Positions 56,180 to 58,285 of a DNA stretch of 64,000 nt are shown here, in pieces. Source of the DNA: a virus; the IMG/VR virus record IMGVR_UViG_3300035181_002522, positions 64,001 to 128,000 of that record. One strand, written 5' to 3'. Numbering within the stretch: position 1 is the first letter of the stretch; the number at the start of each line of letters is the position of its first letter. Both the position numbers and the translations under genes were made by a program. Below the pieces are notes generated by a model. The model had not been told where the DNA came from. It ran no database searches and saw only the letters and a program-made list of their open reading frames with translations.

Positions 56180-56257
56180 TCTCTGACCTTAGCTACGGGG
56201 CGAGGTGACTGGCCGGCCAGCTAAAAAAGGGAAGTTCGATTCTTCCTCAGAGAGCCA
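56180..56257 (+). ncRNA. tRNA-like RNA with palindromic loop-less anticodon arm (copy 1)
   Basis: TCTCTGA/TCAGAGA-G-CCA, T arm GGAAG-TTCGATT-CTTCC, palindrome CTGGCCGGCCAG. Confidence 0.8.
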
Positions 56258-56917
56258 AACATTCAGGTGAGATACTTCGTGGAGATTTTGTAATTTTATT
56301 ACAGGTTTTTCTATACGAGTCACACTCTTTCAAATTGTACAAGAAATGTGTTCAGCTCCGATATTGTTATTGTGGTGGCTTAAAAATATTCCTGAAGAAA
56401 AGCAAGAAGAAGTAGCTGATAAGTTACGAGCATGGTTAAAGACCGCGCCAAACCGATTAGATATGGTGCATTGTGGCGATTGACAAAATAAAAGAGGTTT
56501 CATTCGAAACTCTTACACAATAGAAGGGTTAGCCCTTACTCCAGAAAAAGCATAGAGCTTTACAACTTTCTCAATAAACCAGTTATCATAGTAGAGCATT
56601 TTGCCTATCTAATAAGTGGCTCATTTATGCGTGAAACAAATTGTCTAGACACTTCTACATATAATATAGAAAAAGTAGAATGAAACTAACTTGCAGTCAC
56701 TGCGGAACTGATTATGATGGTATTGATAACCACTGTGAAAGTGGTATAGGTCACTGGGAATATGTAGACACTGCTGACGGCATTTGGGAGATTTGGTATT
56801 GTTGCTAATAATGAACCCCGCAAGACATTTTTCTCCGCTGAGCTAAAACTTTTATTGTTCAATTAATGAATTGGTGATATAATAATTTTTTTATTGTAGT
56901 CACTGAGGAGTTGAAAA

Positions 56918-57562
56918 ATGTCTGAACTTAATGTTAAAGAAACTATTCATAACGCTGCAGAAATCAGAATTGGAATAAGGGCAACATACAAAAAATATCG
57001 AAACCTTCAAAAGGTTTTCAATATCATCTTTACCGATGAAGTTTCAGTGCTTAAGTCTTTGATCGATGGTATCTACTACTTAGGTGGTGGTTATCCTGCT
57101 GAAAATAGTCCTGGTCGATTCGAATTTGCTATCGAGAAAGCAGCAAAGTATGCAAGGTATTACTCATTTATTGGAAAGCAGGATTTAATAATTTCCGAAT
57201 TCAAAAAGTATGGTATTACCATAAGCATTGACAATGAACTACAAGATACCCTTCTTTCTACAAACGAGTTGCAACTCATTAAAGAAGTATTGCCAAATGA
57301 ACAGTTGATGTCTCGTCGCGACCTTTTGAACCGATTGATTGAAATTGGTTGCGATTATCAGCGATCCATCTGCAAAAACGCCGACATCATTAAGTTAGAC
57401 TTGAAACCACGAGTCTTAGAGTCTAGTGGTATGCACGTTCATGAATTTAGCAAGGCTTTAGAATTGGAAATTGATTCTGTCAACACGAAATCATCAAAAT
57501 TCACTAAAAAGAAGCAGACTTTTATGAAAAGTATCTTAAATTTCCAACAGTTGGTGAAATAA
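56918..57562 (+). CDS. hypothetical protein
   Basis: GAGGAG RBS, 214 aa. Confidence 0.7.
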   Translation: MSELNVKETIHNAAEIRIGIRATYKKYRNLQKVFNIIFTDEVSVLKSLIDGIYYLGGGYPAENSPGRFEFAIEKAAKYARYYSFIGKQDLIISEFKKYGITISIDNELQDTLLSTNELQLIKEVLPNEQLMSRRDLLNRLIEIGCDYQRSICKNADIIKLDLKPRVLESSGMHVHEFSKALELEIDSVNTKSSKFTKKKQTFMKSILNFQQLVK

Positions 57563-57710
57563 AACTTAAAACCAGTGCAAAAATGTTAACTCGTTAACAA
57601 AAATTTAAGCTTGAACCATTTACACATAGTTAAAAAAAGAGTATTATTATCTCACATTCGGAAAACACCGAATCGAAGTTGAAAATCTTACTTTAATTAC
57701 CTATGAGGAA

Positions 57711-58184
57711 ATGACCATGAGAACTACTACTTATGCAGAAAAATTCAATGCCAAAACCATAGCTTACAATGCCTTGGTCAAATTGAACGCTGAACTGGAA
57801 GTTGCTCGTAAAGCAAAACGCGATGCAAAAGCGAATGGCGAAACCGAAGGTGCGGTATTTACCACTTACACTGTTGTTAAAGATGCTCAAAAAGCAGCTT
57901 ACGGCCAACTGGTCGACTTGAACGCTGAATTGAAAGCAATGCGTACCAGTGGCACAGCCTTTGAAAAGGGTGAATCAAAACAGCGCGGTCGTAAACCAGC
58001 AAAACCTGTTGAACCACATAACTTGGCCGAATTGAAAGCAATCCTGGAAACCTCCGGCATTGAATTCAAAAATAAAGGTATCATGTTGGACATTGCCGGT
58101 AAACATGTAACATTTGCGGCTGGCCGTTTCGTAGTTGACAAAGTCAAATTTGGTCCTGCTGAAATCATGGGTGCTCTGAAATAA
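57711..58184 (+). CDS. hypothetical basic early protein
   Basis: promoter-like site upstream, GAGGA RBS, biased codons. Confidence 0.7.
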   Translation: MTMRTTTYAEKFNAKTIAYNALVKLNAELEVARKAKRDAKANGETEGAVFTTYTVVKDAQKAAYGQLVDLNAELKAMRTSGTAFEKGESKQRGRKPAKPVEPHNLAELKAILETSGIEFKNKGIMLDIAGKHVTFAAGRFVVDKVKFGPAEIMGALK

Positions 58185-58202
58185 GGGCACCCACCCTTTA
58201 CC

Positions 58203-58285
58203 CCCACGACCATTAAGGTGATATGGTGATAAGCTAGTTGGCCAACTAGCTTAAAAACGGAAGTTCAACTCTTTCTCGTGGGCCA
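58203..58285 (+). ncRNA. tRNA-like RNA with palindromic loop-less anticodon arm (copy 2)
   Basis: CCACGA/TCGTGG-G-CCA, T arm GGAAG-TTCAACT-CTTTC, 24-nt palindrome TAAGCTAGTTGGCCAACTAGCTTA. Confidence 0.8.

What the first reader, a model, noticed from the sequence alone, without database searches (positions are those of the whole stretch)
56180..58285. Two tRNA-like RNAs whose anticodon arm is a perfect loop-less palindrome
Seen at 56180-56257 and 58203-58285, same layout with different sequence: acceptor ending GA joined directly to a CC(T/A)T/(G/A)(A/T)GG D-like stem, a TGA linker, a self-complementary arm (CTGGCCGGCCAG, 12 nt; TAAGCTAGTTGGCCAACTAGCTTA, 24 nt), an A5-6 linker, T arm GGAAG-TTC...-CTT(C/T)C, and G-CCA. 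There is no 7-nt anticodon loop. Inference: the palindromes could pair intermolecularly to give tRNA homodimers with two CCA ends, or present dsRNA. G73 plus a long arm might allow serylation. I do not recognise this class.
Basis: partly seen in the sequence, partly recalled or inferred. Interest (0 to 1): 0.8.

Follow-up and report, generated by a model that had tools for sequence, protein, structure and literature searches.

The report
Two non-decoding tRNA look-alike genes
A large phage carries two related genes for tRNA-shaped RNAs whose codon-reading arm is sealed into a plain hairpin. A related phage keeps their fold through matching mutations, but the "perfect palindrome" that drew attention is not the conserved part, and their job is unknown.

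Summary
Both elements are real at the stated coordinates. Each has a 7-bp acceptor stem, a standard T arm and an encoded CCA, but no 7-nt anticodon loop. ARAGORN and Rfam miss both.

They are paralogues. A model built from element 2 alone scores element 1 above every ordinary tRNA searched.

One diverged relative (L117; flanking protein 82% identical) holds orthologues of both in the same positions. All 16 substitutions at paired positions keep pairing, and 5 pairs changed on both sides. The RNA fold is therefore under selection.

Palindromy is not conserved.
- Element 2's orthologue has a 9-bp stem and a 7-nt loop.
- In element 1, covariation supports a shifted 5-bp stem with a 6-nt loop, not the 12-nt palindrome.
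- What persists is a closed hairpin whose loop carries GGCCA.
- Long perfect palindromes are also common elsewhere in this genome.

Best reading: selected, non-decoding tRNA mimics matured like tRNAs. Dimerisation through the self-complementary GGCC loop remains possible but untested. I found no support for serylation, quadruplet decoding or a Pth2 cassette.

This scan has already noted sealed-anticodon tRNA look-alikes in other large phages. This is a new variant of that kind.

The parts
56180..56257 (+). Element 1: a 78-nt tRNA-shaped RNA gene, 8 nt after tRNA-Gly(UCC) 56098-56171
   Evidence: Sequence. R1 gives 36.2 bits. The orthologue L117:5154-5231 gives 64.8 bits.
56180..56186 (+). Element 1 acceptor 5' strand. 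It pairs with 56247-56253. G73 is at 56254 and CCA at 56255-56257.
   Evidence: 7 of 7 pairs. One U-A to U-G change in L117. In L117 the 3' end reads GCCCA.
56187..56205 (+). Element 1 D-like hairpin (3-4 bp, G-rich loop). There are no position 8-9 linker bases.
   Evidence: The stem is invariant in L117, so no covariation is available.
56209..56224 (+). Element 1 sealed arm in the best-supported register: stem 56209-56213 with 56220-56224, loop 56214-56219 (CGGCCA).
Evidence: U-A to C-G double change, and C.A to C-G, in L117 and in strains L118/L120/L121.
56230..56246 (+). Element 1 T arm (5 bp, loop TTCGATT)
   Evidence: Two pairs changed on both sides in L117.
58203..58285 (+). Element 2: an 83-nt tRNA-shaped RNA gene, 18 nt after the stop codon of ORF 57711-58184
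   Evidence: Fold z-score -3.2, 0 of 200 shuffles as stable. The orthologue L117:6489-6572 gives 73.3 bits and sits behind the orthologous ORF.
58210..58226 (+). Element 2 D-like hairpin (4 bp, 9-nt loop containing GG), followed by the TGA linker at 58227-58229
   Evidence: The only change in L117 is in the loop.
58230..58253 (+). Element 2 sealed arm: a 24-nt perfect palindrome. Read as RNA it is a 9-bp stem (58230-58238 with 58245-58253) and the loop TGGCCA (58239-58244).
   Evidence: In L117 two pairs changed on both sides and two changed to G-U. The loop there is 7 nt (GAGGCCA), so it is not a perfect palindrome.
58259..58275 (+). Element 2 T arm (5 bp including one G-U, loop TTCAACT)
   Evidence: G-U to A-U in L117.
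58169..58192 (+). 6-bp GC-rich hairpin spanning the stop codon of ORF 57711-58184, 10 nt before element 2. It could form the 3' end of the mRNA if RNase P cuts at element 2.
   Evidence: Read from the sequence and conserved in L117. Its role is inferred.

Best explanation
These are two paralogous genes for tRNA-derived small RNAs that cannot decode: sealed-anticodon tRNA mimics.

Each keeps the parts of a tRNA that the processing machinery reads. These are the coaxial acceptor/T-arm helix, a canonical T loop, a G-containing D-like loop that could form the elbow, and an (R)CCA end. They are probably transcribed with their upstream neighbours (tRNA-Gly for element 1, a 157-aa ORF for element 2). 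RNase P would then cut them out, and they would be finished at the CCA end.

The anticodon arm is replaced by a closed hairpin of 5 or 9 bp, with a 6-7-nt loop carrying GGCCA.

The perfect palindromy is incidental. In element 1 it comes from two overlapping pairing registers. In element 2 it is specific to this lineage.

What is shown: the anatomy, the paralogy, and selection on the fold.

What is inferred, with my odds for how they act:
- About 25%: they occupy a factor that binds the tRNA body or the CCA end (a host nuclease or defence protein, or a processing enzyme) without entering translation.
- About 25%: they are RNase P cutting signals that set the 3' ends of the upstream RNAs.
- About 15%: they pair through the GGCC loop.
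For: Anatomy.

Paralogy: the model from element 2 alone ranks element 1 (36.2 bits) above all ordinary tRNAs in the window and in 165 kb of tRNA regions from related phages. These are the only two hits in the 164-kb contig.

Selection on the fold:
- Orthologues of both lie in L117 at the same relative positions.
- There are 21 substitutions in all, 16 of them at paired columns. None breaks a pair, and 5 pairs changed on both sides: 2 in the T stem of element 1, 1 in its arm, 2 in the arm of element 2.
- For element 1, only 20 of 500 shuffles reach the observed covariation.

Non-decoding:
- No 7-nt loop with U33 and R37.
- Arm lengths differ between the paralogues (5 against 9 bp).
- The pair that closes element 2's loop covaries (U-A to G-C), so the loop has 6-7 nt.

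Same strand and tight spacing to upstream genes.

Other sealed-arm tRNA-shaped genes exist in a related jumbo phage (L088:2330-2417) and in unrelated phages (L001:8269-8338, L137:2775-2849).
Against: - There is no expression or processing data.
- Only one diverged lineage carries orthologues. None was found in 32 records related by their major capsid protein, including 4 complete jumbo-phage genomes, so the elements are young or dispensable.
- The encoded 3' end is not strictly kept: GCCA against GCCCA in element 1, and GGG-CCA against GGGG-CCA in element 2.
- The D-like hairpin shows no covariation.
- No partner protein was identified. The neighbouring ORFs have no family matches.
Confidence: 0.6

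Rival explanations
1. Dimerising tRNA mimics, a refined form of the first reader's idea. The self-complementary loop core (GGCC, extended to UGGCCA in element 2) makes loop-loop kissing complexes. These could be homodimers or an element 1-element 2 heterodimer, giving particles with two CCA ends.
For: GGCC sits at the apex in element 1, element 2 and both L117 orthologues, although 7 of 24 arm positions changed in element 2. It is not one of the stable capping tetraloops (GNRA, UUCG). Thermodynamic co-folding allows dimers: -14.7 and -19.9 kcal/mol.
Against: The co-fold control is not discriminating, since an ordinary tRNA-Asp gives -15.4. Four unchanged bases at this divergence are expected about one time in four by chance. 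The full palindromes are not conserved. L137 was found with a pattern that demanded GGCCA, so it is not independent evidence. The loop could equally be a protein-recognition site.
Confidence: 0.15
2. Decaying tRNA pseudogenes. A tRNA lost its anticodon loop, for example by a one-base insertion that turned a near-palindromic loop into a palindrome, and is now drifting.
For: The 8-nt apex of element 2 equals the tRNA-Gly(GCC) loop seen in L117:4308-4380 plus one G. The elements are absent from most relatives. The 3' ends vary by single-base indels.
Against: 16 of 16 stem substitutions preserve pairing, with 5 double changes. Both copies are retained in two lineages, while the neighbouring tRNA-Gly(UCC) has a sequence only about half identical between them.
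Confidence: 0.1
3. DNA-level palindromes. The perfect inverted repeats would be binding sites for a dimeric protein, recombination or cleavage sites, or products of a palindrome-perfecting mutation process, and the tRNA likeness would be secondary.
For: The genome holds 10 perfect palindromes of 20 nt or more, against a maximum of 20 nt in simulations. Most are intergenic and just after stop codons. One other 20-nt palindrome shares element 2's 8-nt centre.
Against: In L117 the DNA symmetry is broken while RNA pairing is kept, including through G-U pairs. G-U pairs are meaningful only in RNA.
Confidence: 0.07
4. A four-base-decoding (frameshift-suppressor-like) tRNA. Element 2's apex would be read as an 8-membered loop, UU-GGCC-AA, with U33, A37 and the anticodon GGCC.
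For: The literal loop sequence fits. L137:2775-2849 has this loop on a nearly canonical 75-nt tRNA body. Earlier notes of this scan describe phage quadruplet tRNAs beside Pth2 genes.
Against: The loop-closing pair covaries, so the loop is closed to 6-7 nt. The L117 orthologue lacks U33. The stem is 9 bp rather than 5. No gene near the elements needs a +1 shift at an in-frame GGCC. There is no Pth2 gene in G000, G043 or G044.
Confidence: 0.03

Closest known systems
Phage T4 stable RNAs species 1 and 2 (rnaC, rnaD)
   Same: They are small non-coding RNAs encoded inside a phage tRNA cluster, directly after a tRNA gene on the same strand. rnaC keeps a canonical T arm closed by a terminal helix and has long hairpins where the D and anticodon arms would be. 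From my own knowledge, their function is still unknown.
   Different: They are longer (119-139 nt). I found no sequence similarity and did not test homology. T4's RNAs have no GGCCA loop. The present elements are of tRNA size and carry an encoded CCA.
Canonical bacterial/phage tRNA (Rfam RF00005)
   Same: 7-bp acceptor stem, 5-bp T stem with G53-C61, T loop TTCRAYT, a 5-nt variable region, a G73-CCA end, and a location among tRNA genes.
   Different: No 7-nt anticodon loop. No position 8-9 linker. Two to three bases lie between the D-like stem and the arm. There is no Rfam hit at E<=10 and no ARAGORN call.
mascRNA / MALAT1 3'-end module (tRNA-like RNase P substrates that set the end of an upstream RNA)
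   Same: A tRNA-shaped element with a reduced anticodon arm lies directly behind another transcript. Element 2 sits 18 nt after a stop codon, with a conserved hairpin just upstream.
   Different: mascRNA is eukaryotic. Cleavage is not shown here, and element 1 follows a tRNA rather than an mRNA.
YrlA-type bacterial/phage Y RNAs (tRNA mimics bound by Ro60; PMC4201824)
   Same: Non-decoding tRNA mimicry. According to earlier notes of this scan, the same phage encodes Ro60 and Y-RNA-like RNAs.
   Different: In YrlA the RNA ends form the Ro60-binding stem and the tRNA-like part is internal. Here the ends form an acceptor stem with CCA, and I saw no Ro60-type stem.
Kissing-loop dimerisation hairpins (HIV-1 DIS, TAR-TAR*)
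   Same: A hairpin loop of 6-7 nt with a GC-rich self-complementary core flanked by purines.
   Different: This is an analogy only. No dimer has been shown, and the core here is 4-6 nt.

Membership tests
Canonical tRNA (RF00005) | 7-bp acceptor stem stacked on a 5-bp T stem, with a T loop TTCRANN and G53-C61 | tested here: met
   T-stem pairs covary.
Canonical tRNA (RF00005) | 5-bp anticodon stem with a 7-nt loop carrying U33 and a purine at position 37 | tested here: not met
   Loops are CGGCCA (6 nt) and UGGCCA (6 nt). The L117 orthologue has GAGGCCA, without U33 or R37. Element 2's stem is 9 bp.
Canonical tRNA (RF00005) | Two linker bases (positions 8, 9) before a D stem, and one base (position 26) after it | tested here: not met
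   The acceptor stem runs directly into the D-like stem, and 2-3 bases (TGA) follow that stem.
Canonical tRNA (RF00005) | Score at or above the Rfam gathering threshold, or a call by ARAGORN | tested here: not met
   No match at E<=10. No ARAGORN call.
Sealed-anticodon tRNA mimics of large phages (a class noted earlier by this scan, unpublished as far as I could search) | A tRNA body with a CCA end, an anticodon loop replaced by a closed hairpin, and a fold kept by compensatory changes in relatives | tested here: met
Sealed-anticodon tRNA mimics of large phages (a class noted earlier by this scan, unpublished as far as I could search) | Placement in a cassette with a Pth2-like hydrolase and a four-base-reading tRNA | tested here: not met
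   No PF01981 in G000, which is only 46% complete. No GGCC frame junction nearby.
Frameshift-suppressor / quadruplet tRNA | An open 8-membered anticodon loop on a normal 5-bp stem, plus a matching four-base codon in a gene | tested here: not met
Y RNA (YrlA type) | 5' and 3' ends paired into a Ro60-binding stem | tested here: not met
   The ends form an acceptor stem with a CCA overhang. There is no RF02553 hit.
RNase P-processed tRNA-like 3'-end element (mascRNA type) | Cleavage by RNase P at the 5' end of the tRNA-like fold, which releases the upstream RNA | not testable with these tools
   Only the substrate features are present.
T4 rnaC/rnaD-type stable RNA | A stable, abundant small RNA cut out of a tRNA-cluster transcript | not testable with these tools
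   The position in a tRNA cluster is shared. Stability is unknown.

The most novel reading that the evidence does not exclude
The conserved GGCC(A) loop is the working part. These tRNA-shaped RNAs would use it to pair with each other, giving kissing dimers that present two CCA ends. Alternatively they would use it to capture the complementary 3'-GCC(A) tails of G73 tRNAs. Either would be a phage RNA device that acts on tRNA ends by RNA-RNA pairing.
Probability: 0.15. Interest if true: 0.75.

Novelty: new variant of a known kind. Interest (0 to 1): 0.5.

Why it matters
Large phages carry many tRNA genes, and their odd tRNA-like neighbours are usually dismissed as pseudogenes or missed altogether. 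Here two such genes are invisible to the standard tRNA finders, yet selection on their fold can be shown.

Together with other cases noted in this scan, this points to a recurrent and unstudied class of non-decoding tRNA mimics in phage-host conflict or RNA processing. T4's species 1 and 2 RNAs, unexplained for decades, may be distant analogues.

The conserved GGCCA loop gives a concrete handle for mutagenesis.

Tried and rejected
- **Relatives by DNA or neighbouring proteins.** megablast and blastn against the phage records and pattern look-ups with the two flanking proteins in IMG/VR found no relatives.
- **BLAST and the covariance model R2** over 32-43 records related by their major capsid protein, including four complete jumbo-phage genomes, found no orthologues.
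- **Collection-wide pattern scans**. They returned ordinary tRNAs, one sealed-arm mimic in an unrelated 97-kb contig (L001 = L115), one tRNA-shaped gene with the 8-nt loop UUGGCCAA (L137), and an unrelated conserved marine element.
Rejected in favour of a shifted 5-bp stem. A third, minimum-energy fold (a long arm from 56189-56194 to 56219-56224) is compatible with the A-to-G changes but loses a pair in L117. It is not excluded.
- **Co-fold thermodynamics for dimers.** The control tRNA-Asp behaves alike, so the result is not informative.
- **Quadruplet decoding and a Pth2 cassette.** No matching frame junction and no PF01981.
- **Charging identity, by inspection only.** There is no G3:U70, no G-1, and no class II variable arm.
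- **Neighbouring ORFs as partners.**
  - They have no Pfam, PHROG or PDB-sequence matches.
  - Distant homologues of the 157-aa ORF lie in other phages' tRNA regions but are not followed by such an element.
  - The 214-aa ORF is not similar to the RNA ligase that neighbours one of those homologues.

Full report
**Setting.** The window is G000:C1:64001-128000 of a 164-kb virus contig with 35.6% G+C. CheckV rates the contig 46% complete.
- It encodes a T4-type portal protein and major capsid protein.
- The nearest named phage is the 344-kb Ralstonia phage RsoM2USA, with 64% capsid identity.
- Related IMG/VR genomes of 343-368 kb each give 52-59 matches to the Rfam tRNA model.
- So the contig is probably about half of a jumbo phage.
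- Window 39-64 kb is a loose tRNA region, with all genes on the + strand.

**Observation.** Both elements are as described.
- Element 1 (56180-56257) starts 8 nt after tRNA-Gly(UCC).
- Element 2 (58203-58285) starts 18 nt after the stop codon of a 157-aa ORF.
- Each has a perfect 7-bp acceptor stem, a 5-bp T stem with G53-C61, and a canonical T loop.
- A D-like hairpin follows the acceptor stem with no linker. Then come a TGA linker, a perfectly palindromic arm (12 or 24 nt), five A-rich bases and CCA.
- ARAGORN and Rfam find neither, even at E<=10.
- Element 2 folds as drawn, with z = -3.2.

**The two are paralogues.** A covariance model built from element 2 alone scores element 1 at 36.2 bits. 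That is above every normal tRNA in the window and in 165 kb of tRNA regions from four related complete genomes. Nothing else in the contig matches.

**Relatives.**
- No homologue appeared in 32-43 capsid-related records, nor in the collection-wide pattern scans.
- The route that worked was the flanking 157-aa protein. It has near-identical copies in four JGI contigs (L118-L121) and one 82%-identical relative on a 53-kb Logan contig (L117).
- L117 holds orthologues of both elements. One lies 22 nt after a tRNA-Gly(UCC). The other lies 20 nt after the orthologous ORF.

**What the orthologues show.**
- Element 1 differs at 11 positions and element 2 at 10.
- Sixteen of these lie in paired columns, and none breaks a pair.
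- Five pairs changed on both sides:
  - two in the T stem of element 1 (GGAAG/CTTCC became GAGAG/CTCTC);
  - one in element 1's arm;
  - two in element 2's arm.
- The rest are changes to or from G-U.
- This is selection on an RNA fold, not on a DNA palindrome.

**The palindromes themselves are not conserved.**
- *Element 2.* The orthologue's arm is a 9-bp stem with a 7-nt loop (GAGGCCA). The pair that closes the loop in the window copy covaries (U-A to G-C). As RNA, the window copy is therefore best read as 9 bp plus the loop UGGCCA.
A register shifted by four bases on the 3' side (56209-56213 with 56220-56224, loop CGGCCA) gains a U-A to C-G double change and a C-G pair. That C-G pair is also present in three of the four near-identical strains.
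- In this register the two elements become parallel: arm, then a 5-nt variable region, then the T stem.
- The 12-nt palindrome is then a by-product of overlapping registers. By length alone it is at chance level.

**What persists.** In all four copies there is a closed hairpin whose loop carries GGCCA.

**Perfect palindromes are a habit of this genome.**
- There are 10 of 20 nt or more, against a maximum of 20 nt in simulations. Most are intergenic and just behind stop codons.
- Among perfect hairpins with stems of at least 10 bp, 10 have no spacer at all, against 1 with a 2-nt spacer and 6 with a 4-nt spacer.
- Symmetry through the centre is therefore not special to these RNAs.

**Wider class.**
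- A pattern scan found L137:2775-2849 in a complete 116-kb phage that has only one ordinary tRNA. It is a 75-nt, nearly canonical tRNA body with G73-CCA and the 8-nt loop UUGGCCAA on a 5-bp stem. It scores 31 bits with the family model. The pattern itself demanded GGCCA, so this is not independent evidence for that motif.
- That loop equals the loop of a tRNA-Gly(GCC), as seen in L117, plus one G. This suggests how such arms can arise.
- Other sealed-arm tRNA-shaped genes are L001:8269-8338 and L088:2330-2417 in a related jumbo phage.
- Earlier notes of this scan list similar "sealed-anticodon" look-alikes in other large phages, often beside a Pth2-like gene and a four-base-reading tRNA. I tested that lead here:
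  - no Pth2 in G000, G043 or G044;
  - no gene near the elements needs a +1 shift at an in-frame GGCC.

**Mechanism.**
- *Shown:* tRNA-derived anatomy, paralogy, a fold under selection, and inability to decode.
- *Inferred:* co-transcription with the upstream gene, excision by RNase P, and a CCA end.
- *The CCA is not rigid.* L117 has GCCCA in element 1. The window copy of element 2 lacks one G, so CCA follows the seventh pair directly.
- *A possible mRNA end.* A conserved GC hairpin spans the stop codon of the 157-aa ORF, 10 nt before element 2. It could become the mRNA's 3' end after cleavage, as at the MALAT1/mascRNA junction.
- *Dimerisation.* Pairing through the GGCC core is physically plausible, but the co-fold calculation does not separate these RNAs from a control tRNA.
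- *Charging.* I see no identity elements for it.

**Comparison with the known.** The closest published analogues are T4's species 1 and 2 RNAs. They follow tRNA-Arg in the T4 tRNA cluster, and rnaC keeps a T arm with long hairpins in place of the other arms. I found no paper describing tRNA-shaped phage RNAs with sealed anticodon arms, but the searchable library is limited.

**Verdict.** These are real, selected, non-decoding tRNA mimics, and a new variant of a known kind. A self-complementary GGCC loop core is the feature worth testing.

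Noticed in passing
L083:9359-9430 (-), L076:15215-15286 (-), L083:8943-9014 (-): Related jumbo phages carry tRNA-Arg-like genes (loops CUACGAA and GUCCGAA, anticodons ACG and CCG). They have the same unusual backbone as the two elements: the acceptor stem runs straight into a short D stem, and 1-2 bases follow that stem. ARAGORN misses them. They may be the decoding relatives of the mimics.
   Followed up: partly
G000:10777-10808, 46788-46815 and 47924-47951; window 496-525, 16858-16883 and 46752-46775: The genome has an excess of long perfect palindromes (20-32 nt). 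Most are intergenic and directly after stop codons, and some look like terminators. Symmetry through the loop is far more frequent than neutral loops would give.
   Followed up: partly
window 56098-56171 vs L117:5058-5131: The tRNA-Gly(UCC) upstream of element 1 has an unusual T loop (ATAGTTC). It is only about half identical to the tRNA-Gly(UCC) at the same place in L117, while element 1 is 86% identical.
   Followed up: no
L099-L114 (for example L102:1786-1809): A highly conserved element of about 75 nt occurs in 17 marine metagenome contigs. It has a tRNA-type T arm and an imperfect acceptor-like closing helix followed by a T run, with no anticodon loop recognised by ARAGORN.
   Followed up: no
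L137:2700-3000: Around the UUGGCCAA-loop tRNA-like gene of the 116-kb phage lie two more T-arm-like motifs and two similar GC hairpins. These may be further tRNA-derived structured RNAs.
   Followed up: no
window 57711-58184; L140:2501-2950: The 157-aa ORF before element 2 belongs to a small family (31-39% identity) found in the tRNA regions of other phages. In two contigs it directly abuts a downstream 212-aa gene, which in one of them is annotated as an RNA ligase (PF09414).
   Followed up: partly
L003:8194-8300 (-), L004:3856-3965 (-): A tRNA-shaped gene of about 125 nt has a normal acceptor stem, D arm and T arm, with about 55 nt inserted in the anticodon region. It is seen in two viral contigs.
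   Followed up: no
window 39286-39408, 46845-46970, 48304-48421, 62368-62447: Further non-standard tRNA-shaped genes lie in the same window: long inserts, a 33-nt hairpin inside a tRNA-Leu-like anticodon loop, and a weak Rfam tRNA hit. Other notes of this scan cover them.
   Followed up: no
window 61939-62310: A free-standing GatB/YqeY-domain protein is encoded within the tRNA region. The Pfam match (26.7 bits) is just below the family cut-off (27). It may be a tRNA-binding helper.
   Followed up: no
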